DNA of 32,000 nt from Pseudoalteromonas tetraodonis (GTDB lineage Bacteria; Pseudomonadota; Gammaproteobacteria; Enterobacterales; Alteromonadaceae). The position numbers and the translations under genes are program-made. The notes beneath the pieces were generated by a model. That model was not told where the DNA came from and did no database searches. It saw nothing but the letters and a program-made list of their open reading frames with translations. Below, one piece after another: positions 6,820-32,000 of the stretch; the first letter of the stretch is position 1, and each line of letters begins with the position of its first letter. Where the stretch lies: NCBI RefSeq assembly GCF_002310835.1, contig NZ_CP011042.1, forward strand, positions 697,258-729,257. Direction: 5' to 3'.

Positions 6820-7287
6820 ATGAAGAATTATAAAGTTCTATTGTGTATTGGTTGTTTGTTTTTTGCTAATCAGTCTTTTGCTAAAACGATTTTACCTAGT
6901 AACAAAACTAAGTTTGTTAGCTTGTTTAATAGTAAAGTTGGCGATTATGAATTAATTTCAGGCGATGCTCGCTATTGTGATTCAGGTTCATTAATGTGGC
7001 TCGATAGAAATAATACCGATTTGGGTTTTAGACTTGGTAGTTTAATTTCTTTTATTGATTTACATAATGGAACACAAACTAATAAAGTCCCTGATTTTTG
7101 CCTAGTGACTACTAAGTTTAAATATACGAATATTGGTTTAACAATGGATTTGCGCCAAGACAGGTGTGACAATAATAGCGATACATTAGATGTTAGCCGC
7201 ACGCTAAATTTTGTTTCTGACACACAGTTAGAATATTCGATTAAAAATGCTAATGTTCAATGTAAGTTTGAATTAAAGCGTCTATAA
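6820..7287 (+). CDS. Hypothetical secreted protein (155 aa, Cys-containing)
   Basis: N-terminal signal peptide MKNYKVLLCIGCLFFANQSFA/K. No family recognised. The 3' end overlaps the umuC stop by 6 nt (convergent genes). Confidence 0.5.
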   Translation: MKNYKVLLCIGCLFFANQSFAKTILPSNKTKFVSLFNSKVGDYELISGDARYCDSGSLMWLDRNNTDLGFRLGSLISFIDLHNGTQTNKVPDFCLVTTKFKYTNIGLTMDLRQDRCDNNSDTLDVSRTLNFVSDTQLEYSIKNANVQCKFELKRL

Positions 7288-8544
7288 ATCGCATTTTATT
7301 TTTGGAATATCACGCCAACGAGTCGTGTATTGCGGCGATAAAAAAGCCCTGTTCATATGCCAATGATCATTTAATTGGCTGCTCGCCACGCTAAGCATTC
7401 CTTTACCGTATCTATGATTTATCGCATCTAAGCAGCCCATTAACTGCGGGTTATCGGTTTGCTTATCAAATAAATGATGTTGTTGAAACTGCTGCGGGCT
7501 GAGCTCTAATGCGCCCACACCACATTTATAAAATCGAATTCCCGGTTGATATATTTGCTCAAAACTCTTTGATACCGCATTGGCCATAACGCGAGTATCG
7601 TTAGTGGGCGGATCAAATTGATACATAACTGACTTTTTATAAAAGGCGTGTTCATGTGATGAGCTGGCAGCAAAAATATAAATACGATGAGTGAGCGACT
7701 GTTGTGCTCTTAATTTTTGTGCAACTACACTAGCATGATTTATTAGGGCGGTTTTAACTGCATCGGGGTCGCAAAGTCGCTGACCAAAACTACGAGTTGA
7801 AAAAATAGCTTGTTTATCTTGGCGTACATCATCCCAGTTTAAACAGGTAATGCCGTTGAGCTCGTTAATTGTGCGCTCAAGCACCACACTAAATTGGCGA
7901 CGAATAGTTTTTGGGCTTTGCTCAGCCAGTTGCCACGCGGTATGAATGTCCATGAGAGCCAGCTTTTTAGCTAAACGTTTGCCCACCCCCCAAACATCTT
8001 GGCAGTGCATTCGTTGTAAAATAGTGCGGCGACTTACTTCATCGTCAATCACTGCAACACCATTAAAGCCAGTTAGTTTTTTAGCTGCATGGTTAGCGGC
8101 TTTGGCTAAGGTCGGTGTTGGCCCAAAGCCAACCCCAACAGGGAGTTTGGTTTCGCGCCATACAGTACGCCTAATTAGTTGCCCATATGCTTGCCAATCG
8201 TTAATTAAAGGTTGATAACCATTAAAGTGTAAAAACGATTCATCGATACTGTAAACATGCTGGGTGTCACAAAAGCGGCCAATTACACTCATCATCCGGT
8301 CGCTTAAATTAGCGTATAGTTCATAGTTACTAGAGCGTACAACCACATTGTTTTGTTCTAGTAACTGCTTAACTTTAAAGTAAGGGCCAAATTTAGGAAT
8401 ATTAAGCTTACGCGCAATTGGGCAGACCGCACACACACAACCGTCGTTATTGGTAAGCACCACCACAGGCTTTGAGCGAATAGCCGGATCAAATACTTTT
8501 TCTGCACTGGCATAAAAAGCAACGGCATCGACTAAGGCATACAT
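7282..8544 (-). CDS. umuC: DNA polymerase V catalytic subunit UmuC (Y-family polymerase)
   Basis: N-terminus MYALVDAVAFYASAEKVFDP resembles E. coli UmuC MFALCDVNAFYASCETVFRP. 420 aa. Overlaps the umuD 3' end by 13 nt. Confidence 0.93.
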   Translation of the reverse strand: MYALVDAVAFYASAEKVFDPAIRSKPVVVLTNNDGCVCAVCPIARKLNIPKFGPYFKVKQLLEQNNVVVRSSNYELYANLSDRMMSVIGRFCDTQHVYSIDESFLHFNGYQPLINDWQAYGQLIRRTVWRETKLPVGVGFGPTPTLAKAANHAAKKLTGFNGVAVIDDEVSRRTILQRMHCQDVWGVGKRLAKKLALMDIHTAWQLAEQSPKTIRRQFSVVLERTINELNGITCLNWDDVRQDKQAIFSTRSFGQRLCDPDAVKTALINHASVVAQKLRAQQSLTHRIYIFAASSSHEHAFYKKSVMYQFDPPTNDTRVMANAVSKSFEQIYQPGIRFYKCGVGALELSPQQFQQHHLFDKQTDNPQLMGCLDAINHRYGKGMLSVASSQLNDHWHMNRAFLSPQYTTRWRDIPKIKCDL

Positions 8545-9548: not shown

Positions 9549-10295
9549 ATGGGTAAAAAAGTACGCAAAGCAACCGTATTAAGCACAAAGCAAATAACCC
9601 CACATTTACAACGCATTATTGTCGGCTCAGATGAGTTTAACGACCTGAGTGCGCAATACATTGGTAACTATGTAAAGGTGCTTATTCCACAAAATGGCCG
9701 CGTTGACTTTAATATTAAAACTACGTGTATGCGTTCATACACTATAAGACATGTTGATGAGCACACTGGTGCACTTACCCTCGACTTTGTGATAAATATG
9801 CACCAAGGTCCAGCCACTAATTGGGCTAAAGAAGCAAAAGTAGGCGATGAAGTGGGTATAGCAGGGCCAGGCCCTAAAAAGTTGGATAACTATGATCATT
9901 CATATTATCTATTACTTGGCGATTTAACTTCGGTTAATGCAATTAAAGGCTACGTGCAACAATTGCCTATAAACGCAAAAATTGACGCGATTATCCATGC
10001 ACCAACAAAAGATGATGTGATTAGCTTAGACTCCTCGCGTGATGTAACGTGGTTAATAACAAATAACCCCGATACAGATATGATAAACGCATTAAAATCG
10101 CTACCACTTAGTGAGCAACAACCTATTGTATTTATGGCACTTGAAGCCGGATTAGTCCGTAAAGCAAAAACCATATTAACTGATGAATTAGCTATACCGC
10201 GCAGTCAAATTGTTGCATCGGGCTATTGGAAAAAAGGACTTGATTCAGAAGCTTATAAACTAAAGCGCCAACACGCTGCGGCTAAAAATAGCTAA
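9549..10295 (+). CDS. Siderophore-interacting protein / FAD-binding ferric-reductase family (ViuB/SIP-like)
   Basis: GAGG lies upstream of ATG 9549. RSYTIRH is an RxYT-type FAD-binding motif. 248 aa, matching the two-domain SIP architecture. Divergent from the MarR gene. Confidence 0.75.
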   Translation: MGKKVRKATVLSTKQITPHLQRIIVGSDEFNDLSAQYIGNYVKVLIPQNGRVDFNIKTTCMRSYTIRHVDEHTGALTLDFVINMHQGPATNWAKEAKVGDEVGIAGPGPKKLDNYDHSYYLLLGDLTSVNAIKGYVQQLPINAKIDAIIHAPTKDDVISLDSSRDVTWLITNNPDTDMINALKSLPLSEQQPIVFMALEAGLVRKAKTILTDELAIPRSQIVASGYWKKGLDSEAYKLKRQHAAAKNS

Positions 10296-10439
10296 CTTAA
10301 TTGTTGTTCAATCACATCGCTATTTAGCTTTTAAAAGGCAAGGCGCCTTGAATTGACTGTCATACACACCCATCTCTTAGCGTAGACTCATTATTTATGG
10401 CTAGCGCTATAAATCGCTATTTAATTTGGAGGTGCTACT

Positions 10440-11432
10440 TTGTTATCAACTATTCCTTTTTCGTTATTAGAACTGGCGCCTATGCCTAAAGGCGCCACTG
10501 TGAGTGACACCTTAAATAAAAGTACAGCCTATGCACAAAAAGCTGATGAGCTCGGTTTTAACCGTTTTTGGTTAGCCGAGCATCATAATATGCCTGGGAT
10601 TGTTTGTGCGGCTACTTCAATTTTGGTGGGGCACATAGCCGGTAACACTAAAAAAATACGCGTAGGGTCGGGTGGAATTATGTTACCTAATCATGCTCCT
10701 TTAGTTGTTGCTGAGCAATTTGGCACCTTAGAAAGTTTATACCCAGGTCGAATTGATTTAGGGTTAGGGCGCGCTCCAGGTAGCGATCCTGTGACAAGTC
10801 GTGCATTAAATAACGATATCAGTCGTGCTGAAAACTTTCCTAATGAAGTGAGCGAGTTACAAACATTATTGGGCCCTTATGAGGGAACTAAGCGCGTGCG
10901 AGCAATACCTGGTGAAAACACCAATGTTCCCATTTGGCTTTTAGGTTCAAGTTTATTTAGTGCGCAGTTAGCTGCACAAAAAGGATTACCCTATGTATTT
11001 GCGGGGCACTTTGCACCGCGTTTTGTGCATGATGCAGTAGCCTTGTATAAACGAGAATTTAAACCATCAAATGTATTAGCTAAGCCTTATGTCATGTTGG
11101 CATTACCTTTAGTGGCTGCAGATACAGATGAAGAAGCACAGTACTTATCAACTACATCCAAACAGCGAGTGTTATCGTTAATTAGAGGCGACGAGTTGTG
11201 GTTAAAACCCCCAGTAGAAACAATGGAAGGTTTGTGGAGCGAACAAGAGCGCGCTCATGTTGAGAGCTTTTTAGGGTTAAGTGTTACCGGTGGGCCAGCC
11301 AGTATTAAACACAAGCTAGAAATGATTGTAAATCAATTAGGGGTTGATGAGCTTATATTCACCAACGACTTATTTGATAATGAAAAGCGCCATAAAGCGC
11401 TTGAAATTTTAATGCAAATAAAACATGGATAA
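10440..11432 (+). CDS. LLM-class (luciferase-like) flavin-dependent oxidoreductase, YhbW-like
   Basis: GGAGG at 10428-10432 lies 7 nt before TTG 10440. FSLLELAP...WLAEHHNMPGI...GSGGIMLPNHAPLVVAEQFGTLESLYPGRIDLGLGRAPGSD matches my recollection of E. coli YhbW closely. Confidence 0.85.
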   Translation: MLSTIPFSLLELAPMPKGATVSDTLNKSTAYAQKADELGFNRFWLAEHHNMPGIVCAATSILVGHIAGNTKKIRVGSGGIMLPNHAPLVVAEQFGTLESLYPGRIDLGLGRAPGSDPVTSRALNNDISRAENFPNEVSELQTLLGPYEGTKRVRAIPGENTNVPIWLLGSSLFSAQLAAQKGLPYVFAGHFAPRFVHDAVALYKREFKPSNVLAKPYVMLALPLVAADTDEEAQYLSTTSKQRVLSLIRGDELWLKPPVETMEGLWSEQERAHVESFLGLSVTGGPASIKHKLEMIVNQLGVDELIFTNDLFDNEKRHKALEILMQIKHG

Positions 11433-14484: not shown

Positions 14485-15528
14485 ATGATCGACATTTTTG
14501 CAGGTAAAACTGCAGCAAAAATAATAAACGAACAAGGGTTTAAACCTGAGCTTTTTACCTCGTTTTTAGGGGCAAGTGGTGGCCCTAAATGGTTTACCTT
14601 ATTTGGCTTAGACAAATATATATTTGGCGAATTTTTTAAACATCGCATCCAACCGCTTAATTTAATTGGCTCATCGGCAGGGGCTTTTCGTTCTGCGTGT
14701 TTTGCACAAAACGATCCAGTTAAAGCCATTGAACGTTTAGCAAAATCGTATTCGCAAACCCGATATTCTAGTAATAAACCCACCCCAACTGAGATTACCA
14801 CTAAAGCCCGCGCATTACTTGAAGATGTATTTGGTGATGATGGCGTTACTGAAATTATAAATAATCCGGTATTTAAAGCGCATTTTATTGTCGCAAAATC
14901 TAACGGGTTTATTGCCAGTGAGAATAAATTAATACAGCTTTTGGGTTTATCAAAAAGTTATATGCTTAACCGCGTTAATCGAAAATTATTAGGCTCGCAA
15001 TATGAGCGTTTTATTTTTGGCGCGCCCAATAGTGATTTAAGTATTACCGACAGCTACAATTTTAAAACTCAAAATATCGCACTCACACAAACAAATTTAA
15101 AAGATGCCTTATTGGCATCGGGCTCTATACCACTAGTAATGCAAGGCATAAAAAATATTGCCGGTTCCCCACCAGGAATTTACCGCGATGGCGGCATTAT
15201 TGATTACCACTTTGATTTAAAAATTAATAACCCAGGCTTAATTTTGTATCCGCATTTTAATTCAGAACCAAAAGCAGGGTGGTTCGATAAAAATTTAAAA
15301 CGAAAAGTGTCACCACAAAATTATGATAACGTTGTGATGATCACCCCATCAAAAGAATTTGTCGCGGGTTTACCTTACGGGAAAATCCCAGATAGAAACG
15401 ACTTTACTGATCTTGATGCAGACACGCGGATTAAATATTGGAACACCGTGTTTAGTGAAACTGAGAAACTGGCCGAAACATTTGATAATAATTTAGAAAA
15501 TGAAAGCTTTGATTTAAAAATTTTTTAA
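14485..15528 (+). CDS. Divergent patatin-like phospholipase family protein
   Basis: GASGGPKW (Gly-rich oxyanion motif), GSSAGA (GxSxG) and YRDGGIIDY (DGG catalytic Asp). No clear SD. ATG 14485 is the first start after an in-frame TAG. Confidence 0.72.
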   Translation: MIDIFAGKTAAKIINEQGFKPELFTSFLGASGGPKWFTLFGLDKYIFGEFFKHRIQPLNLIGSSAGAFRSACFAQNDPVKAIERLAKSYSQTRYSSNKPTPTEITTKARALLEDVFGDDGVTEIINNPVFKAHFIVAKSNGFIASENKLIQLLGLSKSYMLNRVNRKLLGSQYERFIFGAPNSDLSITDSYNFKTQNIALTQTNLKDALLASGSIPLVMQGIKNIAGSPPGIYRDGGIIDYHFDLKINNPGLILYPHFNSEPKAGWFDKNLKRKVSPQNYDNVVMITPSKEFVAGLPYGKIPDRNDFTDLDADTRIKYWNTVFSETEKLAETFDNNLENESFDLKIF

Positions 15529-15537
15529 TTATTACTT

Positions 15538-15565
15538 ACTATACATAAATTACGGTATGCAGTAT
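15538..15565 (+). other. Degenerate dif-like site (pseudo-dif; candidate attL of a Xer-exploiting cassette)
   Basis: ACTATACATAA|ATTACG|GTATGCAGTAT. It shares CATAA and an identical 6-bp central region with the site at 17126-17153. Its XerD-arm equivalent matches TTATGTTAAAT at only 6/11. Located 10 nt after the patatin stop codon. Confidence 0.5.
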
Positions 15566-15600
15566 AAATAAAAGGGCGTAAGCCTTTTTTTATTAGATAT

Positions 15601-16674
15601 TTATAGATTCTGCCTGAGTGACAGTTTGTCGTCTGATAAAAAATTCATAATATTTTTAAAATGATAGTGAAGCATGGCTAAAAAAATCTTATTATCTTTA
15701 GTAGAAAAATAATTTAAAAGATTTGCTGTTATTTGAAACATACACAGAGTAAGACCTTCTATTGGGACTTTAGCACCTAAAGAACTTCTTCCTACACAAA
15801 GTTGATCATAAGAAGAACCATTCGTTGCAAGGTTCAAAATTAAACTTTGAGAGCTAGCATGAATATTTTGACTAGCAATTTTAGAGTAAGGTGCATAATG
15901 ATCTAAAGACAAAGTCTTTTCTATATCTGCAAAGGTTATTTTACCATTCTTATTACTTGGCTCTACAAAGCCATCCAACCAGCCATAATCAAATCTGTAT
16001 TTTTTACCATATGTAGTTAATAAATAATTATAAAGTTCTTCTGTTTGTTTGGCTTGGTCGTCATCGACGACTAAGTCTTTATACTTTTCTGGATAATTAT
16101 CTTTGGCTTGCTTAGATTTATTTAGATTATTAAACTTATCAACAATATGATGATGATAAAACTTTTCAGCGCATTCAGGGCCATATGTAAAAATGCTTAT
16201 AAAAATAACCAATATATCATACAGGCTTCTCCATCTTGATAAAGCAGCATCAGGATAGCCATTTTTTATTAAGCATAGTATTTCATTTGATGCTAAAGAT
16301 GCTCTAGCATGAAGTTTAATTAGAACATCAAACATTACATCATTTGTTTCAGATGCACTCAACCTGAACTCTTCATTAATTTCTGAACCCACAAAAACAG
16401 AAAATGAAATGAAGCGCTCAAGCTTTTCAATTAAAGTACCCCATTGTTTATTATGGGATTTAAAAAAAATGTCGTCCGATTCTGTGTTAAATTTCAGGAT
16501 AGAATCATCTATAAAATAAAATGATAGTTTAGGTAGAATGCTATCAACGGACTCTTGAACATAAGTCCGAAAATCAGCTTCAGTATATTCTTGGTAAGTA
16601 TTTTTCCCATTTTTTGATTCGTATTCATACAAATCATAAAGAGCCTGAGTAAGAATATCTTTTATGTCTTTCAT
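15601..16674 (-). CDS. Orphan AT-rich gene; helical protein resembling the DUF5677 family (function unknown)
   Basis: The track start at 16746 is a TTG. ATG 16674 (MKDIKDIL...) has AGGGAA 6 nt upstream, giving 357 aa. The segment LIKLHARASLASNEILCLIKNGYPDAALSRWRSLYDILV resembles my recollection of the DUF5677 core. Hand-counted GC of three 60-nt lines (15601-15780) is 22-35%. Confidence 0.65.
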   Translation of the reverse strand: MKDIKDILTQALYDLYEYESKNGKNTYQEYTEADFRTYVQESVDSILPKLSFYFIDDSILKFNTESDDIFFKSHNKQWGTLIEKLERFISFSVFVGSEINEEFRLSASETNDVMFDVLIKLHARASLASNEILCLIKNGYPDAALSRWRSLYDILVIFISIFTYGPECAEKFYHHHIVDKFNNLNKSKQAKDNYPEKYKDLVVDDDQAKQTEELYNYLLTTYGKKYRFDYGWLDGFVEPSNKNGKITFADIEKTLSLDHYAPYSKIASQNIHASSQSLILNLATNGSSYDQLCVGRSSLGAKVPIEGLTLCMFQITANLLNYFSTKDNKIFLAMLHYHFKNIMNFLSDDKLSLRQNL

Positions 16675-17057
16675 GAATTTCCCTGTAATTATTTGATTAC
16701 TGTTTTTTGCTAGAACACCTACAATATCTAGTAATTGACTTTGCAAATCAAATAAATATTGGTCTTAAGTCTTAATTTGCTCCATAAGTTTTTTGTACAT
16801 GGTTTCATATTTTTTGCTGACCAGTTTATATCACTTAACTAATGTACCGCAGATGATTTACTTTTCCTCAATGTTTAGACATAGTGTTGTCTTAATAGGG
16901 AGTTCTATACCTGGGCATGGGCAAGTTAGGGAAAGGAGACGTAATTAATAATGAAAATATACGTTAATAACATTAAATAATAGAGAGTTTATTAAGTAAT
17001 AAAAAGAAAATAATAATAAGTATTTTACCTTTGAAATTATAAGCGTTAAATTATTTT

Positions 17058-17126
17058 AGCTGATAGCTGATAGCTGATAGCTGATAGCTGATAGCTGATA
17101 GCTGATAGCTGATAGCTGATAGCTGA
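17058..17126. repeat. Perfect tandem heptad array (AGCTGAT) x ~9.9
   Basis: agctgat is repeated without interruption from 17058 to 17126 (69 nt). It ends exactly where the XerC-arm equivalent of the dif-like site begins. Confidence 0.97.
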
Positions 17127-17153
17127 AAACCCATAAATTACGTTATGTTAAAT
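17126..17153 (+). other. dif: Candidate XerCD dimer-resolution site (dif) of this replicon
   Basis: AAAACCCATAA|ATTACG|TTATGTTAAAT. The XerD arm is 11/11 identical to the E. coli and V. cholerae dif XerD arm. The inner XerC arm CATAA sits at the correct 6-bp spacing. The outer XerC arm is non-consensus. Confidence 0.65.
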
Positions 17154-17169
17154 TAAGCAATTTAAATTA

Positions 17170-17201
17170 AAGTGGGCGTAATCCATAAAACTAGCCCACT
17201 T
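17170..17201 (-). terminator. Hairpin downstream of the SYLF lipoprotein gene
   Basis: aagtgggc (17170-17177) pairs with gcccactt (17194-17201), with a 16-nt loop. AT/T-rich sequence follows on the minus strand. Confidence 0.45.
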
Positions 17202-17220
17202 ATGATAGGGTTTTGATAGC

Positions 17221-17784
17221 TTAGTTTAGCTCAGAATCGACCCAAAATTTAGTACCTTTTAAAACAGCTTGCAGTGCAAGGCCACTTTCGGTTAAAGAGT
17301 AAACAGTAACTTGGTCAGCAATAGCTTCGGCAACTAAAGCGCCACCTTTATCTTGGTATTTTGCAGCAGCATCGGCATTACCACCGAACGCCCAACCATG
17401 TTTAATAAATCTATTTAACGCAGCTTGATCGTGAAAAACCATCACAATATTGAAATCTTTAACACCTAAACCTAAGCCTAAACCAGCTTCACCCATATTC
17501 ATATAGGTAGATTTTCCGGTTAGGTTATTTTTTACTACACCGTACCCACCACCAAAACTGGCTAAAATAACGTTTACATTGGCATTATCAAATACAGCAT
17601 AACCGGCAGAGTTTGCAATTTGAGTTTTAACATCTGGTTTTTTTTCGTATAGAGCAGTTAATGTATTCGATTTCATACTTTGTACTAAAGCACGTTTTTC
17701 TCCAGGGGAAGCACTGCCTGTAGTAGCGCAACCTGTTAATAAAACGCTAATAACTAACATGCTCAACAGAAGTAATTTTTTCAT
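17221..17784 (-). CDS. Lipoprotein with SYLF (Ysc84/DUF500) lipid-binding domain
   Basis: The track start at 17841 is a TTG. ATG 17784 has AAGGA upstream and gives MKKLLLLSMLVISVLLTG/C (lipobox). The Gly-rich GGGYGVV...GLGLGLGV segment is typical of bacterial SYLF proteins. Confidence 0.8.
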   Translation of the reverse strand: MKKLLLLSMLVISVLLTGCATTGSASPGEKRALVQSMKSNTLTALYEKKPDVKTQIANSAGYAVFDNANVNVILASFGGGYGVVKNNLTGKSTYMNMGEAGLGLGLGVKDFNIVMVFHDQAALNRFIKHGWAFGGNADAAAKYQDKGGALVAEAIADQVTVYSLTESGLALQAVLKGTKFWVDSELN

Positions 17785-17923
17785 GATTTTTCCTTTAATA
17801 AGGTATATGGTTAATAAATCTGCGTTTAGCATAAATATCAAAATTCATTATGTCCAATACTAGACAGTATCGGACTTTAAGGTTAACCTATAAGTCTATT
17901 ATTTTCTTATATATTTTACTATT

Positions 17924-19135
17924 ATGCTTGTTGCTCTGGTCGATACATTAAAACAATTACGTTATCAAATAGCTCATCTTGAAGATAATACACTCTCATC
18001 AGAATATCCAGAACTAGCCTCTTTTATACAGCAAGTCAGCTTGACTGTAACTGAATCAAAGGCTGATCTTAATTTTTTATACCAGTTTTTATATGTTTAT
18101 GGACGAAAATCTGAGGCAACCTATAGTCGTTTTCGTAATGAGTTGGAACGTTTTTATTTATGGTCATGGCTTATAGCTGAAAAATCTGTATTTGAACTTA
18201 AGCGTGAAGATATTGAAGCCTATGTTGATTTTATGGTTGAACCGGATAAAAAATGGGCATCTAAATCTGTTCAATGGCGTTATAAAGATGAGCAAGGAAT
18301 TCGTCGGTTAAATCAAAATTGGCGCCCTTTCATGTTAAAAGAATCTATTGCGAGTCAGCAAACATTATCGGCCATGTTTACTGCCCTCAATGTATTTTAT
18401 AAATTCGCTATTTTAGAAGAAAAAACCTTTGCTAACTTTGTACCTGTTGTTAAAAAAAATAGTCCCTACTTGGTTGTGCAATCGCAAATACAAATCCCCG
18501 ATACATTAAGTGATATTCAATGGGAATATGTATTTGGCGTTACCAGAGATATATGCGAAAAAAAACCAGAGTATGAAAGAAACTTATTTACCCTCGCCTG
18601 TTTAAAAGGACTCTATCTTCGTATTTCAGAATTATCAGAGCGACCACAATGGTCACCTGTTATGTCTCATTTTTGGCAAGATAATGATGGCTTTTGGTTT
18701 TTACGAATAATGGGCAAAGGAAATAAATTACGCGATGTAACATTAAGTGATGATTTTCTTGAGTATTTAAAACGTTATCGCTTGTATCGAGGCTTGCCTG
18801 CTCTGCCCCGCGTTGATGAGTCAGACCCTCTAGTTCATAAAATTCGTGGTCAGGGTGGAATGACCGTAAGACAAATTCGCAGATTGGTACAACAAAGTTT
18901 CGATATTGCGCAACAATCTTTACTTGATGATGGATTTAAAGATGACGCGGAACAATTAGAAGCGGCCACTGCGCATTGGCTACGCCATACGGGGGCAACG
19001 CATGACGCGCAAACTCGCCCTTTAAAACATTTATCTGAAGATTTAGGCCATGCAAAAATTGCTACAACCGATCAAATTTATATTCAAACAAATATAAAAG
19101 AGCGGGCTAAATCTGGAATTAAAAGGAAAATTTAA
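17924..19135 (+). CDS. Tyrosine-type site-specific recombinase / integrase (403 aa)
   Basis: C-terminal catalytic signature: LRISEL (Arg), HWLRHTGATH (HxxR), LGHAKIATT (His) and DQIYIQ (Tyr). Long N-terminal SAM-like/core-binding region. No tRNA gene nearby. Confidence 0.85.
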   Translation: MLVALVDTLKQLRYQIAHLEDNTLSSEYPELASFIQQVSLTVTESKADLNFLYQFLYVYGRKSEATYSRFRNELERFYLWSWLIAEKSVFELKREDIEAYVDFMVEPDKKWASKSVQWRYKDEQGIRRLNQNWRPFMLKESIASQQTLSAMFTALNVFYKFAILEEKTFANFVPVVKKNSPYLVVQSQIQIPDTLSDIQWEYVFGVTRDICEKKPEYERNLFTLACLKGLYLRISELSERPQWSPVMSHFWQDNDGFWFLRIMGKGNKLRDVTLSDDFLEYLKRYRLYRGLPALPRVDESDPLVHKIRGQGGMTVRQIRRLVQQSFDIAQQSLLDDGFKDDAEQLEAATAHWLRHTGATHDAQTRPLKHLSEDLGHAKIATTDQIYIQTNIKERAKSGIKRKI

Positions 19136-20334
19136 TGGAATACTTAGTGATCTCATTTATTGGCGTTTTATTTTTAGTTTATTCCTTAACATTTCGCCAA
19201 CTAGAAAAAACCGAAGTAACGGGGCCAATGTTTTTTGTAATTGGTGGGATATTGCTTGCCACACTTTTACCTAACGAAAGTAGCAGAATAAAAACCGGCA
19301 TAGATTTTTTACTGCCCTTTATAGAATTGACACTCAGTATTTTTTTATTTTCTGATGCGGCTAAGTCAAAATTAAGTGTTTTAAGACATAGCTTTCAGTA
19401 TCCAAGTTTACTGTTATTTATCGCCCTCCCCTTAACGTTATTACTTGGGATTGCCGTTGGGTTATTTTTGTTTGCCGATTTATCTGTTATTCAAGCGGCG
19501 TTACTTGCAATAATATTAACGCCTACCGATGCGGCGTTGAGTAAAGGGTTATTGGCAAGTACGCAGGTACCTGAAAAAATTCGTGAAGGAATTAATACCG
19601 AAAGTGGTTTGAATGATGGTTTATGTGTTCCTATTTTTTTAATATTTATATTACTGGCAAAAAATCCTGAATCTGCAATCACAGCAACGCAAACGTTAAG
19701 TGTGTTTGGCAGAGAACTTGGTTTAGCCTTATTAATTGCCTTTACAAGTACCGCTATTTTTATTCCGTGTTTAAATTTTGCAATGAAGCGCCATTACTTT
19801 GCGCAAAACACGAGTCCTTTTTTATTATTAGGTTTTGCTATGGCGGTGTTTTCGATTACGCAATATTTTCATGGCAGTGGATTTATTGCGGTGTTTGTTG
19901 CGGGTTTATTATTTGATAAATACGCCACTACTAAAATAAGCAAAGAGTTGATAGAAGACTCAGAGCATATTGCTGACTTTACTTCTTTAATGATCTGGTG
20001 TTTGTTTGGATTTGTATGTGCTTATTTAGTTTTACCTAAATTAAATTTAGCGATAATAACGTATGCATTATTAAGTACGACTTTAATTAGAATAATACCG
20101 GTTATGCTGTCATTGCAATTTACAGCACTAACAATTAAAGAGCGTTTTACATTTGCTTGGTTTGGGCCAAGAGGATTGGCCTCAATTGTTTTTACCTTAA
20201 TGGTAATAGACACACAAATAGAAAACAAATTTCAAATTGCGACCATTGCCATGACAACAATTTTATTTAGTGTGTTTATTCACGGTATTAGTACAAAACC
20301 TATAGCAGATAGTTTTGCTAAAAAAACTAAATAA
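19135..20334 (+). CDS. Cation:proton antiporter (CPA1, Na+/H+ exchanger family)
   Basis: 399 aa with about 11-12 predicted TM helices. Motifs ILTPTDAA and ESGLNDG are typical of NhaP/CPA1. The start ATG overlaps the integrase stop (TAATG, 19133-19137). Confidence 0.85.
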   Translation: MEYLVISFIGVLFLVYSLTFRQLEKTEVTGPMFFVIGGILLATLLPNESSRIKTGIDFLLPFIELTLSIFLFSDAAKSKLSVLRHSFQYPSLLLFIALPLTLLLGIAVGLFLFADLSVIQAALLAIILTPTDAALSKGLLASTQVPEKIREGINTESGLNDGLCVPIFLIFILLAKNPESAITATQTLSVFGRELGLALLIAFTSTAIFIPCLNFAMKRHYFAQNTSPFLLLGFAMAVFSITQYFHGSGFIAVFVAGLLFDKYATTKISKELIEDSEHIADFTSLMIWCLFGFVCAYLVLPKLNLAIITYALLSTTLIRIIPVMLSLQFTALTIKERFTFAWFGPRGLASIVFTLMVIDTQIENKFQIATIAMTTILFSVFIHGISTKPIADSFAKKTK

Positions 20335-28935: not shown

Positions 28936-29103
28936 GCACTTATGTAATCTTAACTTTACGGGTGGTTTTAAAAAAGAATGCTACTCAATTATGCGTTTTT
29001 AAATATTTATGCTAACGCTTCATACAAAGCTCAGTGCCTTAACTCAGCCCTTCTATTATTTCCTTTAAAGTATATGAAGCAAAAGTACTTAAAAAACCAT
29101 AAA

Positions 29104-29123
29104 GAACACATCATACTTAATTA
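29104..29123 (-). other. Ter-like site 2
   Basis: Exact copy of the 20-mer at 28916-28935. Flanking sequence is also partly similar (..tgtaa(a)tctta..). Confidence 0.55.
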
Positions 29124-29200
29124 AAATTACTGTAAATCTTAGCTAAAGCATGTTATTTAAAGAAATAAATATCAAAAGAAAGGGTTGTTTGCGAGAATAG

Positions 29201-29220
29201 TATATAAGTAAGATGTGTTC
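29201..29220 (+). other. Ter-like site 3, inverted relative to sites 1 and 2, 15 nt upstream of the tus ATG
   Basis: TATATAAGTAAGATGTGTTC matches the minus-strand reading of sites 1/2 at 17/20. Its position resembles that of E. coli TerB in the tus promoter. Confidence 0.6.
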
Positions 29221-29234
29221 TAGGTAGGTAGCTA

Positions 29235-30110
29235 ATGGTTACAAAGGTACAAATAAGAAGTCAGTTTGATTTACTCAATGAATTAACACTTAGCTTAATT
29301 GATGAGCTTAAAGGGGTTGGCTTTGCTAAAGCAGAGTATTTTCAATTACCTGAGATTAGTAGTACTGAAGAAAATATAATTCCTGAGTCTATAAGCGTTT
29401 CAAAAATAACAGGGGAATTGGCACATAAGGCAATTTTAAATGCTTTCTCAGATATGTATAAAAAGCCAGGGCTAAGCAGCCGAGTATTAAAGCGACACCC
29501 TGGTTTGCTAGTAATAAAAGAGGCGAATAAACAAGCCATTATTGATCGCATAGCACAGGTAAATAGTGCAAAAGCAGCTTTTAAAAATTGTATTTTAGCA
29601 ATAGATAATAACGACGCGCGATTTGAAGCGGTGCATAATGCAATGCCAAATTTAATAACGCTTGCGGCGTATCGTAAAATTCATAGTGAAATTGAATCCC
29701 CTTTTTCTGTTCGCTTTACTTGGATGCATAAACACGCAACCAAAACACTTACAAAAAAAATGGCGCTTGAAATGTTAGAAAAATCGGCAGGCTATAAAAA
29801 CCCGCGAATGATTGATCAGCAAAAATGGCAGTCACTGGTTGCACAAGAACAGGTTCGAGTAGCCAGTTTGGGTGAAAAAGAAAAATTGCGAATTAGGCGC
29901 CCTACTCGAGTTAGTCCTCAAGTTAATGTGAGGTACACTGCACAAAATCGCTATCATGTTAGTGCTGCTTTACCTTTTATACTAATTAACCCACAGCCCG
30001 ACGTAAAATTTGGCGAACTACCGAGTTACCAAAAACCCTTATCGCATCCCCGAAAACGCGAATATGATTTTCTAGTGGACCGATTATATTTAGAACAAGT
30101 AACTAAATAA
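29235..30110 (+). CDS. tus: DNA replication terminus site-binding protein Tus
   Basis: [30 protein letters not shown] resembles E. coli Tus [47 protein letters not shown] resembles LKIKRPVKVQPIARVWY. 291 aa versus 309 aa. Confidence 0.88.
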   Translation: [291 protein letters not shown]

Positions 30111-30117
30111 ATTATGT

Positions 30118-30146
30118 TAAAAAGGCCACATAATGTGGCCTTTAAT
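30118..30146. terminator. Bidirectional terminator between tus and the initiator gene
   Basis: aaaggccaca-taa-tgtggccttt: a perfect 10-bp stem (30121-30130 / 30134-30143). Confidence 0.8.
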
Positions 30147-30172
30147 ATATTTGTTGGTAAAAATAAATAGAA

Positions 30173-31387
30173 TTACTTTTCTACAATTTCTTCCAGCTTA
30201 TCTTCATCAATCAATACCGCATTTTCAACAATGCGTTTACCGCCTTGTATTTCAATACGCTTATTGTGTTTATTTAATGCCAATATCTCATCACAAAATT
30301 GATCAGACGGATGCATTTCATAAGTGTAATCGACTATGTTGCCGGTTTTATCATCTTTAACATTGGTAATGCTGTATTCAGATATTGCTCCTTTTTCAAT
30401 TAAATCTTTCATCGTGGTTGTCATATCACGACGCAGTGCTTTTAATTTATTTTCGGTAATATCATCCGTTGAGTAAATAGAGCCATATTTTTCCATAATA
30501 GAAAGTAATCTAAAATGGTAGGTTTTTCCTGGTGCTGCATAACGCCATAAATGATATAAACGTAGCATCATCCAACGCGATAATCCGCGTTTTAATTCTT
30601 GTGCACTGTTAAAGTAATAACCTTTGTATTCAAGGTTATCAATCATGTTGTGTACAAATGCATTTAAACACGCAACACATTTTACATTTCCGCCTTGGCC
30701 TTTCTTACCACTAAAGTGCAAAGACGATAAAAAGTTCATATTAGACTCGTAAAACGAATCATCAATATCAGAATTTTTAGTATCCGTTGCAGAATATTTA
30801 AAAGAAAGTTTAGAACCTTGCAATGCTTCAAGCGACTCTTTAATTTGCGGATATGGCATAGATTGGCCAACCGCTTTAAGCTCTTGTGCTAATTCGTTCA
30901 TAGAAAACACAACGGCATATTGAATACCGGACTTAAAATTAATTTTTACAATTTTACCTTTTGAAGCTAGGCGAATTAATGCGCGCTCTACTTTTTCTTC
31001 TCTATCTGATGGCCACACTAAATATTCTACATCTTCGCCATCTTTACGAGTACTGACCACAGCCGGTGTTATTTTTATTTCGCCATCATATAAAATACCA
31101 TCTACTTTTTCAGATATCTTACGCGTAATGATGGTTTTTTTAGGGGCTTCTTCAAGTGGCAGTTTTTTGTGGCCTGAGCGAACAAAACGTCCCCACAGAT
31201 CATAATGGTTAAATGTGTTAGAGTAAGCGCGTAACCCATGGGCTGCATTTTCTATCGAAATTCGCACATCTTTATTATCTGTAAATAGTGCTAGGCTTTC
31301 GTTATCGATCGCACTTTCCACCCCGTGAATTTGGCCCCTAAGTGTATCGGGCAAGTTATCTACCGAGATGTTGACCTTTCGGCTCAT
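30173..31387 (-). CDS. Putative plasmid-type replication initiator (RepA-like) of this replicon
   Basis: Called mainly from context. The gene reads away from an iteron-, DnaA-box- and GATC-rich region that starts about 70 bp upstream, and it is adjacent to tus. About 404 aa. The track start at 31441 is a TTG; the first ATG is 31387 (MSRKVNISV...). I recognise no catalytic motif. Confidence 0.6.
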   Translation of the reverse strand: MSRKVNISVDNLPDTLRGQIHGVESAIDNESLALFTDNKDVRISIENAAHGLRAYSNTFNHYDLWGRFVRSGHKKLPLEEAPKKTIITRKISEKVDGILYDGEIKITPAVVSTRKDGEDVEYLVWPSDREEKVERALIRLASKGKIVKINFKSGIQYAVVFSMNELAQELKAVGQSMPYPQIKESLEALQGSKLSFKYSATDTKNSDIDDSFYESNMNFLSSLHFSGKKGQGGNVKCVACLNAFVHNMIDNLEYKGYYFNSAQELKRGLSRWMMLRLYHLWRYAAPGKTYHFRLLSIMEKYGSIYSTDDITENKLKALRRDMTTTMKDLIEKGAISEYSITNVKDDKTGNIVDYTYEMHPSDQFCDEILALNKHNKRIEIQGGKRIVENAVLIDEDKLEEIVEK

Positions 31388-31457
31388 GGTTTTTATTTCC
31401 GTTTTTATTGTGACAGCTAATAACAACACATAAAGCCACAAAAGTTAAATGTTTAAG

Positions 31458-31584
31458 TTAGTATAAAAGTGATCTGACTTCAAATAAAATGCTCAGATCA
31501 GTATTTTACTAAGGAAAACTTAAAACAAGCGTTTTCAGATCACATTTTTACTAACTGAGTGTTGATAAGCCAAATTTTTACTAA
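31458..31584. repeat. Iteron cluster A (19-mers, consensus CAGATCAnnnTTTTACTAA)
   Basis: Inverted copy ttagtataaaagtgatctg at 31458-31476. Forward copies cagatcagtattttactaa at 31494-31512 and cagatcacatttttactaa at 31536-31554. Degenerate forward copy without GATC at about 31566-31584. TACTAA cores are spaced 42 and 30 bp apart. Confidence 0.7.
31560..31568 (-). promoter_or_regulatory. Near-consensus DnaA box (one mismatch)
   Basis: TGTTGATAA versus TGTGnATAA (reverse complement of TTATnCACA). Followed by GC, like the perfect box at 31663. Confidence 0.45.
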
Positions 31585-31662
31585 CTAAATAATAATTTTG
31601 TCCATTACAAAGTGTTTTTTTTTATATTTTACACGACAAATTATATAAAAATCTTAACCCCC

Positions 31663-31671
31663 TGTGGATAA
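31663..31671 (-). promoter_or_regulatory. Perfect DnaA box
   Basis: TGTGGATAA is the reverse complement of the consensus TTATCCACA. It borders an AT-rich stretch (31585-31660). Confidence 0.7.
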
Positions 31672-31688
31672 GCTTAGTTCGAGTTAGC

Positions 31689-31725
31689 ATAGATCTGATC
31701 TGTACTTACTACAGATCAGATCTAT
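31689..31725. repeat. Perfect 16-bp-arm palindrome carrying four GATC sites
   Basis: atagatctgatctgta (31689-31704), cttac, tacagatcagatctat (31710-31725). Confidence 0.95.
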
Positions 31726-31779
31726 ACTAATTAAACCATGCATTATCACTATTGCTTAGTGCATAACTTTATAATTTAC

Positions 31780-31881
31780 TTAGTAAAAATATGATCTACA
31801 GGTAGGTATTTGTGAGTAACTCAGTGCTTAACCTGTGCGTAACTTAGATTGTAAATATTCGCTTAGTAAAAAGCTGATCTG
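31780..31881. repeat. Iteron cluster B (two inverted-orientation copies)
   Basis: ttagtaaaaatatgatcta at 31780-31798 and ttagtaaaaagctgatctg at 31863-31881. Both are reverse complements of the CAGATCAnnnTTTTACTAA consensus. Confidence 0.7.
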
Positions 31882-32000
31882 CAAGTAGATAAGGATCTGA
31901 TCTTAACCACGTACAATGCTGATCCACTATTTTTAATATTATTTATATAAATCATTACGTTATATATGTATTTTACACCCTTAGCCTTAAATACCTTATA

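What the first reader, a model, noticed from the sequence alone, without database searches (positions are those of the whole stretch)
31442..32000. Composite origin: GATC-containing iterons in both orientations, DnaA boxes and ~8-fold GATC enrichment
Six 19-mers fit CAGATCAnnnTTTTACTAA, three forward (one degenerate) and three inverted, and five of them contain GATC. A perfect DnaA box (31663-31671) and a one-mismatch box (31560-31568) bracket an AT-rich tract. I count 12 GATC sites between 31471 and 31924, where about 1.5 would be expected for roughly 35% GC. The combination suggests a plasmid-type iteron origin whose initiator binding sites are themselves Dam-methylation targets. This recalls methylation-dependent or SeqA-controlled origins such as P1 oriR and Vibrio chromosome II, with additional DnaA input. 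The window ends inside this region, so the picture is incomplete.
Basis: partly seen in the sequence, partly recalled or inferred. Interest (0 to 1): 0.65.

Follow-up and report, generated by a model that had tools for sequence, protein, structure and literature searches.

The report
Pseudoalteromonas second-chromosome replication origin (ori2)

Summary
The 613 bp after the repA start codon hold 12 GATC, against about 0.7-1.6 expected.

The region is ori2 of the Pseudoalteromonas chromid (Chr2). It lies between repA and parA2, next to tus, about 14 kb from a dif2-like site. Xie et al. 2021 showed that repA+ori2 is the minimal replicon in two congeners. They also tabulated 12 Dam sites and 2-3 DnaA boxes for this 773-bp spacer, so the locus is already known.

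What I add:
- All 12 GATCs are kept in 90-100% of 77 species, while other columns are about 60% identical.
- Five co-oriented DnaA boxes sit at fixed positions.
- RepA is homologous to IncA/C plasmid RepA. Its predicted two-winged-helix fold matches RctB domains 2-3 best.
- True plasmids with paralogous RepA also have cAGATC-headed iterons, but with a different 3' half.
- A second iteron array follows parB2, and a conserved AT-rich element is cut by the window end.

Dam/SeqA dependence is inferred and was not tested.

The parts
30173..31387 (-). repA, the chromid replication initiator (404 aa from the ATG at 31387)
   Evidence: It is 87-100% identical over 80 Pseudoalteromonas genomes, several on records named chromosome 2. 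BLASTP against IncC RepA gives 27% identity over 344 aa, E 4e-34. The AF2 model has pLDDT 75. The best PDB fold matches are RctB domains 2-3, Pi and RepE. No Pfam or NCBIfam model matches.
29235..30110 (+). tus, the replication terminus-binding protein gene next to repA
   Evidence: Pfam PF05472, E 3e-90; NCBIfam NF002810. Xie 2021 lists tus-repA-ori2-parA2B2 as the conserved cluster.
31411..31450 (.). Conserved block between the repA ATG and the first iteron (GACAGCTAATAACAACACAT ... AAAAGTTAA); probably the repA promoter/operator
   Evidence: Mean identity is 0.86 over 31411-31432 in 77 ori2 sequences. It contains a Ter-like 14-mer with 2 mismatches. Its function was not tested.
31458..31476 (-). 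Iteron 1 (CAGATCACTTTTATACTAA on the - strand)
   Evidence: Its GATC is kept in 100% of 77 species.
31494..31512 (+). Iteron 2 (CAGATCAGTATTTTACTAA)
   Evidence: GATC kept in 100%.
31536..31554 (+). Iteron 3 (CAGATCACATTTTTACTAA)
   Evidence: GATC kept in 90%.
31565..31583 (+). Iteron 4, degenerate (TAAGCCAAATTTTTACTAA, no GATC).
   Evidence: family D4. In other clades the homologous copy reads cAGATC...TTTACTAAC, and in the pigmented clade it is absent. Mean identity is 0.59.
31584..31660 (.). AT-rich spacer (a), variable in sequence and length
   Evidence: About 82% AT and the second least stable stretch of the spacer. Mean identity is only 0.36, and the pigmented clade is shorter here.
31663..31671 (-). 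DnaA box 1 (TTATCCACA, perfect)
   Evidence: A TGTGNATAA-type box occupies this position in 67 of 77 species. Mean identity is 0.95.
31684..31730 (.). Central palindrome: two inverted iteron variants, each holding AGATCnGATCT (4 GATC in all)
   Evidence: The arms are 21 nt, 95% complementary, with a 5-nt gap. All four GATCs are kept in 100%. AGATCnGATCT units also occur in the origins of the RepA relatives L082, L084 and L086.
31758..31766 (+). DnaA box 2 (AGTGCATAA, 1 mismatch to TGTGNATAA)
   Evidence: Occupied in 64 of 77 species. Mean identity 0.82.
31780..31798 (-). Iteron 7 (TAGATCATATTTTTACTAA on the - strand)
   Evidence: GATC kept in 100%.
31811..31842 (+). Array of three DnaA-type boxes spaced 11-12 bp apart: TGTGAGTAA at 31811, AGTGCTTAA at 31823, TGTGCGTAA at 31834
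   Evidence: The positions are occupied in 53, 34 and 47 of 77 species. All boxes share one orientation: 4.2 per ori2 on the + strand, 0.5 on the - strand, and about 0.75 in shuffles. Other species match the consensus better.
31863..31881 (-). Iteron 8 (CAGATCAGCTTTTTACTAA on the - strand)
   Evidence: GATC kept in 100%.
31892..31924 (.). Free-standing AGGATCTGATCTT unit plus a lone GATC at 31921; three GATCs outside any full iteron
   Evidence: These GATCs are kept in 90-100% of species while their flanks vary.
31925..32000 (.). AT-rich tract (b) plus the start of a family-wide conserved block (CTTAGCC..ATACC..TTTAACC). This is the candidate unwinding region, and the window end cuts it.
   Evidence: It is the least stable DNA of the spacer, 31911-32038. 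The block aligns among chromid ori2, four relatives with 47-66% RepA identity, and IncC.

Best explanation
Window 31388-32000 is the first 613 bp of the roughly 773-bp ori2 of a Pseudoalteromonas chromid (second chromosome). It lies between the divergent genes repA and parA2.

Shown by published experiments on orthologues: repA plus this spacer is necessary and sufficient for autonomous replication, and most of these chromids replicate unidirectionally.

Inferred here: RepA is a two-winged-helix Rep protein of the IncA/C RepA lineage. As a monomer it binds the helically phased 19-mers cAGATCAnnnTTTTACTAA. One half-site is the invariant cAGATC. The other is a lineage-specific half that sets replicon specificity. 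Host DnaA fills one strong box and four weaker co-oriented boxes interleaved with the iterons. The DNA then most likely opens in the AT-rich tract and the conserved TTAACC-repeat block at the parA2-proximal edge, which runs past the window end.

Every functional iteron, plus three further positions, carries a GATC. The origin therefore switches from fully methylated to hemimethylated when it fires. The most likely consequence is SeqA sequestration, weakened RepA binding to hemimethylated iterons, or both, as at Vibrio ori2. Either would limit firing to once per cycle.

The palindromic AGATCnGATCT units may be RepA-dimer control sites. The second iteron array after parB2 (outside the window) may serve copy control.
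For: Identity of the locus:
- RepA is 87-100% identical in 80 Pseudoalteromonas genomes, with the same tus-repA-spacer-parA2 order.
- Xie 2021 defined repA+ori2 as the minimal replicon. Their Table S3b lists 773-839-bp ori2 sites with 12 GATC and 2-3 DnaA boxes, and dif2 about 14.5 kb away.
- The window has a dif2-like site 14.3 kb from the spacer.

Iterons:
- Eight copies are present, against 0.73 expected.
- The frequency matrix from 513 copies in 78 species keeps the GATC and TTTTACTAA halves, with a variable spacer between them.
- Five RepA lineages (27-66% identical) each have their own 3' half. The four marine ones keep cAGATC.
- Iteron spacings in the relatives and the window are 22, 32, 42-43 and 83 bp.

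Initiator:
- Homology to IncA/C RepA, E 4e-34 (typing).
- Fold matches to RctB domains 2-3 (E 1.8e-8), the Pi-iteron complex and RepE.

GATC under selection as a tetranucleotide:
- GATC columns are 99.5% identical against 60% for other columns.
- Non-iteron GATCs are invariant while their flanks vary.

DnaA: five positionally fixed, co-oriented boxes.

Dam-positive host: Pseudoalteromonas ori1 carries 13-15 GATC in 426 bp, and Alteromonadales oriC motifs contain GATC as in Dam-carrying taxa.

Precedent: RctB binds only fully methylated GATC-containing 11/12-mers well.
Against: - No binding, methylation or replication data exist for this sequence or for any Pseudoalteromonas iteron. The papers I could read do not mention iterons in ori2.
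- dam and seqA are not in the window and were not checked directly.
- IncA/C iterons lack GATC, so GATC reading is not a property of the whole Rep family.
- GATC invariance inside the iterons could reflect base-specific RepA contacts alone.
- The unwinding site is ambiguous between two AT-rich tracts.
- A conserved repA promoter was not located.
- The similarity to RctB is structural only, with TM about 0.5. There is no sequence-level hit.
Confidence: 0.8

Rival explanations
1. The origin assignment is right, but methylation is irrelevant to initiator binding. RepA simply reads cAGATC as bases. Dam and SeqA act, if at all, only through generic sequestration, or not at all.
For: True plasmids of the same RepA subfamily also have cAGATC-headed iterons. 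The motif therefore predates chromid domestication and could be plain sequence recognition. IncA/C relatives work without GATC in their iterons.
Against: GATCs outside the iterons (31894, 31899, 31921) are equally invariant while their flanks drift. That pattern points to a reader of the bare tetranucleotide. The host's own oriC is GATC-rich.
Confidence: 0.3
2. The 19-mers are centromere (parS2) sites for ParB2 rather than RepA iterons. RepA would then bind something else in the spacer.
For: The spacer abuts parA2. A second cluster of the same 19-mers lies immediately after the parB2 stop codon in the window's clade. That is the classical position of a type Ia centromere.
Against: - The 19-mer is asymmetric, as Rep monomer sites are.
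- A relative (L084) has about 20 such repeats upstream of repA with no ParA-type gene called nearby.
- IncA/C plasmids place 19-bp repeats next to repA in the same way.
- The post-parB2 array is missing in the pigmented clade, although its ParA2 is 87-88% identical to the window's.
- repA+ori2 without parAB replicates, and the 19-mers are the only lineage-specific repeats in the spacer.
Confidence: 0.08
3. This is an R1/IncFII-type origin with no iterons, controlled by an antisense RNA. This follows the earlier suggestion for strain TAC125 that Xie et al. cite.
For: Replication is unidirectional and tus is adjacent, as with R1-type plasmids. Xie 2021 relays the suggestion of an R1 relationship.
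Against: No IncFII RepA domain appears even at E 10. No antisense-RNA family appears in Rfam. RepA is instead homologous to IncA/C RepA and folds like the iteron-binding Reps. Iterons are plainly present.
Confidence: 0.02

Closest known systems
ori2/RepA of the Pseudoalteromonas chromid (Xie et al. 2021, mBio; P. tunicata, P. spongiae, P. haloplanktis TAC125)
   Same: It is the orthologous locus. It has the same repA-spacer-parA2 position, a length of about 773 bp, about 72% AT, 12 GATC, DnaA boxes, tus adjacent, and dif2 about 14 kb away.
   Different: Nothing essential differs. The published description counts GATC sites and DnaA boxes but, in the text and supplements I could search, does not describe iterons or their embedded GATC. 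It also reports no RepA relatives outside the genus, whereas IncA/C RepA is a clear homologue.
Vibrio cholerae chromosome II origin (oriII/ori2) with RctB
   Same: - It is a plasmid-derived origin of a second chromosome, placed between the initiator gene and parA.
- Every initiator site contains GATC.
- A DnaA box is present.
- The RctB central domains are the best fold match to RepA.
- Extra initiator sites lie outside the minimal origin.
   Different: - There is no sequence-level relationship to RctB.
- RepA has 404 aa. RctB has 658 aa, a figure I give from memory.
- The sites are 19-mers rather than 11/12-mers.
- No 39-mer-like or crtS-like elements were looked for or found.
- Five DnaA boxes are present, against one at the Vibrio origin.
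- Replication is unidirectional and tus is adjacent.
- Methylation dependence is untested here.
IncA/C (IncA, IncC; pRA1-type) plasmid replicon
   Same: RepA is homologous (27% identity, E 4e-34). It also has about 14 repeats of 19 bp, DnaA boxes among the repeats, and the conserved TTAACC-type block beside AT-rich DNA.
   Different: The IncC iterons (TATGTGGGnAnnCTGCACG) lack GATC and lie downstream of repA. RepA identity is low, and a wide gap separates the marine subfamily (47% or more) from IncA/C (27-29%).
P1 plasmid oriR (my own knowledge: Abeles, Brendler and Austin)
   Same: It has 19-bp iterons, DnaA boxes, Dam-dependent function, and a second iteron array (incA) for copy control.
   Different: In P1 the GATCs sit in AT-rich heptamer repeats and not inside the iterons. 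Homology to P1 RepA was not tested here.

Membership tests
Pseudoalteromonas chromid ori2 | Lies between divergent repA and parA2, with tus beside repA, on the second replicon | tested here: met
   Gene order is tus (29235-30110), repA (30173-31387), spacer, then parA2 just beyond the window end. This order holds in L001 and 77 other genomes, including records titled chromosome 2.
Pseudoalteromonas chromid ori2 | Spacer of about 770-840 bp, about 71-72% AT, with 12 GATC and 2-3 DnaA boxes (Xie 2021, Table S3b) | tested here: met
   The spacer is 773 bp in the near-identical locus L001, 71% AT, with 12 GATC.
Pseudoalteromonas chromid ori2 | dif2 lies 4-27 kb from ori2 in unidirectionally replicating chromids | tested here: met
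   A dif-like 28-mer with a perfect XerD arm lies at 17126-17153, 14.3 kb from the spacer. The GC skew changes sign near it.
Pseudoalteromonas chromid ori2 | Supports autonomous replication together with repA | not testable with these tools
   This was shown for P. tunicata and P. spongiae orthologues only.
Iteron-type (winged-helix Rep) plasmid origins | Several 17-22-bp repeats next to the rep gene, helically phased | tested here: met
   Eight 19-mers are present. Start-to-start spacings are 22, 42 and 83 bp in the window and 22, 32 and 42-44 bp in relatives.
Iteron-type (winged-helix Rep) plasmid origins | Initiator with two winged-helix domains (RepE/Pi/RepA fold) | tested here: met
   Foldseek on the AF2 model gives RctB domains 2-3 at 1.8e-8, Pi at 5e-4 and RepE54 at 1e-3. 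At sequence level only a weak Rep3_N hit appears, in 3 of 28 homologues.
Iteron-type (winged-helix Rep) plasmid origins | DnaA box(es) and an AT-rich unwinding element | tested here: met
   Five conserved boxes are present, along with two AT-rich low-stability tracts. Which tract opens is not known.
Iteron-type (winged-helix Rep) plasmid origins | Rep protein binds the iterons | not testable with these tools
   Support is indirect only. The 3' half of the repeat changes with the RepA lineage.
Vibrio ori2 / RctB system | Initiator is an RctB homologue by sequence | tested here: not met
   No Pfam or NCBIfam hit. No RctB chain appears in the profile search of PDB sequences at E up to 10. The similarity is structural only.
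Vibrio ori2 / RctB system | All initiator sites contain GATC | tested here: met
   Seven of the eight 19-mers contain GATC, and the eighth is a decayed copy. GATC is invariant in the frequency matrix and across species.
Vibrio ori2 / RctB system | Initiator binding requires full methylation, and SeqA sequesters the origin | not testable with these tools
   Only the precedent exists, plus indirect signs that the host is Dam-positive.
IncA/C RepA replicon family | RepA is homologous to pRA1/IncC RepA | tested here: met
   BLASTP gives 27% identity over 344 aa, E 4e-34. The PLSDB records are typed IncC and include pRA1.
IncA/C RepA replicon family | IncA/C iteron sequence and its position downstream of repA | tested here: not met
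   The repeat sequence differs and the array lies upstream of repA. This is a distant branch and not an IncA/C replicon.
R1/IncFII replicon | IncFII-type RepA and a CopA-like antisense RNA | tested here: not met
   No IncFII_repA hit appears even at E 10. No Rfam family reaches its threshold in 29000-32000.

The most novel reading that the evidence does not exclude
RepA of this marine Rep subfamily binds its iterons efficiently only when the embedded GATC is methylated on both strands. The chromid origin would then switch itself off on firing, as RctB/ori2 does in Vibrio. Bona fide Pseudoalteromonas and Rheinheimera-type plasmids carry the same cAGATC-headed iterons. Methylation-gated initiation would therefore be an ancestral plasmid trait that pre-adapted this replicon to become a chromosome, and not a trait acquired during domestication. 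The RctB central domains may descend from the same Rep lineage.
Probability: 0.35. Interest if true: 0.55.

Novelty: already known. Interest (0 to 1): 0.3.

Why it matters
The locus itself is established, so its identification adds nothing new. The value lies in the anatomy. It gives a second, independent chromid whose initiator sites all carry Dam targets. These sites are strictly conserved in all 77 Pseudoalteromonas species compared.

The same motif occurs in ordinary plasmids of the family. This makes one question directly testable: is methylation-gated initiator binding, so far shown for Vibrio RctB, a general route by which plasmids become cell-cycle-coupled chromosomes?

The link to IncA/C RepA corrects the published statement that this initiator has no relatives outside the genus. 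It also ties a marine chromid to a clinically important plasmid family.

Tried and rejected
- **E. coli Ter consensus** (GNRNGTTGTAAYKA, up to 2 mismatches): 23 hits against 21.8 expected, so no enrichment. The hit next to repA lacks the critical G, so I do not call it a Ter site.
- **Sigma-70 promoter scan of the spacer:** 3 hits against 4.8 expected. The hit that reads toward repA overlaps the DnaA box, but its -10 element is not conserved. The repA promoter was therefore not located.
- **Rfam on 29000-32000:** only sub-threshold miRNA-type matches caused by the palindrome.
- **Pfam and NCBIfam** on RepA, IncC RepA and other relatives: no family.
- **Profile search of PDB sequences:** nothing meaningful.
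- **Profile search of 1.84 billion representatives:** 882 relatives were found, but only the best 150 are listed. None has RctB length, so a sequence link to RctB could be neither shown nor excluded.
- **Medigue et al. 2005** (TAC125 genome paper, the source of the 'R1-like' idea) is not held.
- **Literature searches** for Dam or SeqA work in Pseudoalteromonas found nothing direct.
- **The 31560 one-mismatch DnaA box** was rejected as functional because it is not conserved.
- **Chance or low complexity** as the source of the GATC excess was rejected.
Full report
**1. The observation**

- **GATC.** It occurs 12 times between 31471 and 31924. The spacer from the repA ATG to the window end is 613 bp and 28.5% GC. 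The mononucleotide expectation is 1.6. None of 20,000 dinucleotide-preserving shuffles exceeds 5. No other palindromic tetramer is enriched, and the rest of the window averages 1.1 GATC per 500 bp.
- **19-mers.** CAGATCANNNTTTTACTAA matches seven times within 31458-31881 at up to 3 mismatches, against 0.73 expected for the whole window. An eighth, GATC-less copy lies at 31565-31583. Two of the eight form the arms of a 21-nt palindrome, 31684-31704/31710-31730.
- **DnaA boxes.** The perfect box at 31663-31671 and the one-mismatch box at 31560-31568 are both present. Such matches are not enriched window-wide, so their meaning rests on conservation.

**2. What the locus is**

- **Flanking genes.** The ORF at 30173-31387 (-) has no Pfam or NCBIfam match. 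The next gene, 29235-30110, is tus (PF05472, E 3e-90).
- **Genome scan.** A scan of one genome per species found the ORF at 87-100% identity in 80 Pseudoalteromonas genomes. Several are on records titled chromosome 2. L001 is nearly identical to the window. It shows the spacer running about 160 bp beyond the window end to a ParA-type gene. A complete 792-kb replicon has the same ppsA-ppsR-aroG-tus-repA-spacer-parA-parB-helicase order.
- **Published work.** Xie et al. 2021 (PMC7858055) describe exactly this cluster. By truncation they show that repA plus the putative ori2 is the minimal replicon in P. tunicata and P. spongiae. They show that most chromids replicate unidirectionally. Their Table S3b lists ori2 sites of 773-839 bp between repA and parA, 71-72% AT, with 2-3 DnaA boxes and 12 Dam sites, and dif2 about 14.5 kb away.
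- **dif2 in the window.** The window carries a dif-like 28-mer with a perfect XerD arm at 17126-17153, 14.3 kb from the spacer. The GC skew is positive over 1-16 kb and flat or negative from 20 kb onward.
- **Conclusion.** The finding is therefore the known ori2, and its GATC and DnaA-box counts are already in print. In the text and supplements I could search, iterons are not mentioned for Pseudoalteromonas.

**3. Anatomy and conservation**

I extracted the repA-parA2 spacer from 78 genomes. The spacers are 675-797 bp long and 23-34% GC.

- **GATC counts.** Each spacer has 11-17 GATC against 1.4-2.5 expected. The one exception contains Ns.
- **GATC conservation.** In an alignment of 77 spacers, each of the window's 12 GATCs is kept in 90-100% of species. 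GATC columns are 99.5% identical to the window, against 60% for all other columns. In a 19-species diverse subset the GATCs stand out as invariant islands in drifting sequence. This includes the three that are not in a full iteron (31894, 31899, 31921).
- **Iteron matrix.** A frequency matrix from 513 GATC-headed iterons gives (t)(t)c-A-GATC-A-n-n-T-T-T-T/a-T-A-C-T-A-A-c/g, with 3-9 such iterons per ori2.
- **Fourth forward copy.** It is decayed in the window's clade, intact with GATC in several basal lineages, and absent in the pigmented clade.
- **DnaA boxes.** TGTGNATAA at up to 1 mismatch occurs 4.2 times per ori2 on one strand. It occurs 0.5 times on the other strand and about 0.75 times in shuffles. 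The boxes sit at five fixed positions, which in the window are 31663, 31758, 31811, 31823 and 31834. The last three are 11-12 bp apart.
- **DNA stability.** The least stable stretch is 31911-32038, which runs past the window end. The second least stable is 31571-31661, which is poorly conserved and variable in length.

**4. The initiator**

- **Homology.** tblastn against plasmids finds 14 chromids (83-99%) and five genuine Pseudoalteromonas plasmids (47-50%). After a gap come more than 1,000 IncA/IncC plasmids at 27-29%, including pRA1. Pairwise BLASTP to IncC RepA gives 27% identity over 344 residues, E 4e-34. This contradicts the published statement that RepA has no relatives outside the genus. 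It also does not support the R1 suggestion: no IncFII domain appears even at E 10, and no antisense-RNA family appears.
- **Family size.** A profile search of 1.84 billion representatives finds 882 relatives, mostly 330-400 aa. The family has no curated model.
- **Fold.** An AlphaFold2 model built from 28 homologues has pLDDT 75 and pTM 0.75. Its best PDB matches are RctB domains 2-3 (E 1.8e-8), the Pi-iteron complex (5e-4), and many RepE54 and Rep-DUE complexes. RepA is therefore a two-winged-helix iteron-binding Rep. The tie to RctB is structural only (TM about 0.5), with no sequence-level hit.

**5. Origins of relatives**

- **Repeats in each lineage.** A lineage with 66% RepA identity (L082, also with parAB and tus) uses AGATCAGGATTTCTCGTA. 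A Rheinheimera/Tara-type element (L084, 47%) has about 20 copies of cAGATCAnnTTTCCCCgAAT. Plasmid pTML1 (L086) uses cAGATCAGATTTACTAcATGT. A 244-kb P. donghaensis plasmid (L087) has at least 16 copies of cAGATCGCAtTTACACGTTATT in 22- and 43-bp register. That plasmid shares its host with a chromid.
- **Shared features.** All these lineages keep cAGATC and change the other half. L082, L084 and L086 also have AGATCnGATCT palindromic units, and the same three have a perfect DnaA box. IncC iterons (TATGTGGGnAnnCTGCACG) have no GATC.
- **Reading.** The variable half tracks the RepA lineage, which is the expected signature of initiator sites. The GATC half is a shared trait of the marine subfamily. 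It is already present in ordinary plasmids, so it was not acquired when the chromid was domesticated.
- **Conserved distal block.** A block at the RepA-distal edge (CTAACC..ATTACCTATATATTTAACCAT..TTAATCTT) aligns across all these lineages and, in reduced form, IncC. It always lies beside AT-rich DNA. In the window it begins at about 31979 and is cut at 32000. I take it as the likely opening or loading region. This is an inference.

**6. Outside the window**

A second array of five GATC-iterons plus one decayed copy lies immediately after the parB2 stop codon, about 2.4-2.7 kb beyond the window end. It occurs in the window's clade and three basal lineages, but not in the pigmented clade. No extra iterons occur in window 1-31400.

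The array resembles the copy-control arrays of P1 (incA) and Vibrio ori2. It also raises the rival reading that the 19-mers are ParB2 sites. I rate that reading low, for five reasons:

- The repeat is asymmetric.
- L084 has many copies with no ParA-type gene called nearby.
- IncA/C plasmids have 19-bp repeats beside repA in the same way.
- The post-parB2 array is dispensable in a whole clade.
- repA+ori2 replicates without parAB.

**7. Mechanism**

Shown, on orthologues: RepA plus this spacer replicates.

Inferred:
- RepA monomers bind the 19-mers. One domain reads cAGATC and the other reads the lineage-specific half.
- DnaA fills one strong box and four weaker co-oriented boxes.
- Opening occurs in the distal AT-rich/TTAACC region.
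- The palindromic AGATCnGATCT units are inverted copies of the conserved half-site. By analogy with the inverted partial iterons bound by Rep dimers in F and pPS10 (my own knowledge), they may be dimer or control sites.

Firing converts 12 GATCs to the hemimethylated state. Several pairs lie 22-25 bp apart, a spacing compatible with SeqA binding (my own knowledge, Brendler and Austin 1999).

Pseudoalteromonas oriC carries 13-15 GATC in 426 bp. Alteromonadales oriC motifs contain GATC, as in Dam-carrying taxa. The host is therefore very probably Dam-positive, although I could not check dam or seqA directly. In Vibrio, all RctB sites contain GATC and only fully methylated DNA binds well. The same may hold here, but nothing tests it.

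**8. Verdict**

The feature is the already described ori2 of the Pseudoalteromonas chromid. The new elements are descriptive:

- the iteron map, with GATC in every functional iteron conserved across the genus and in plasmid relatives;
- the five-box DnaA array;
- the IncA/C homology and RctB-like fold;
- the second iteron array;
- the truncated distal element.

Interest is modest unless methylation-gated RepA binding is demonstrated.

Noticed in passing
window 17126-17153 (+): A dif2-like site, AAAACCCATAAATTACGTTATGTTAAAT, with a perfect XerD arm. It lies in the gap between ORFs 15601-16746 and 17221-17841, 14.3 kb from ori2. This matches the published dif2-ori2 distance.
   Followed up: partly
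window 1-32000 (GC skew), switch near 16-20 kb: GC skew on the + strand is positive over 1-16 kb and about zero or negative from 20 kb to ori2. This suggests a leftward fork from ori2 replicates the roughly 14 kb up to the dif2 region. 'Unidirectional' replication may then really be extremely asymmetric bidirectional replication, one of the two options Xie et al. left open.
   Followed up: partly
window 15000-19200: A low-GC patch (31-32% against 38-41% nearby) surrounds the dif2-like site. It holds a DUF5677 protein, a Ysc84-like protein and a 403-aa phage-integrase-family recombinase at 17924-19135. It may be an element integrated at or beside dif2.
   Followed up: no
window 31411-31450: A nearly invariant block lies between the repA ATG and the first iteron. 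It contains ATGTGTTGTTATTA on the - strand, a 2-mismatch match to the E. coli Ter core. Its orientation would block forks leaving ori2 toward repA and tus. It lacks the critical G, and E. coli-type Ter matches are not enriched in the window. It could equally be the repA promoter or operator.
   Followed up: partly
L001, reverse-complement coordinates 10203-10530 (about 2.4-2.7 kb beyond the window end): A second array of five GATC-containing iterons plus one decayed copy lies directly after the parB2 stop codon. It is present in the window's clade (L001-L036, L039) and in L061, L077 and L080. It is absent in the pigmented clade. It is a candidate copy-control (incA-like) array.
   Followed up: partly
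L001 and 79 other loci (tus, repA, parA2): RepA (87-100% identity) and ParA2 (83-100%) are far more conserved across the genus than the neighbouring Tus (48-97%).
   Followed up: no
proteins P0122 and P0170 (distant RepA-family representatives, 521-537 aa): Some distant members of the RepA family carry a C-terminal stretch matching the N-terminal domain of DnaA (TIGR00362 positions 1-70, E about 1e-5). This may be a Rep fused to a DnaA domain I module.
   Followed up: no
window 30120-30143: A GC-rich hairpin (GGCCAC-ataat-GTGGCC), flanked by an A run and a T run, lies between the convergent tus and repA genes. It looks like a shared bidirectional terminator. Weak sub-threshold sRNA hits in Rfam fall on it.
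   Followed up: no
L084 6959-8104 and L081 3729-4724: The Rheinheimera/Tara-type element with a 47%-identical RepA carries a PAPS-reductase-family gene near repA, as the IncC backbone does. This hints that more than the replicon is shared with IncA/C plasmids.
   Followed up: no
window 379-6690 and 7282-8544: The chromid end region also encodes a 2103-aa secreted M4 (thermolysin-type) metalloprotease with PKD domains and a UmuC/ImpB-type translesion polymerase subunit.
   Followed up: no
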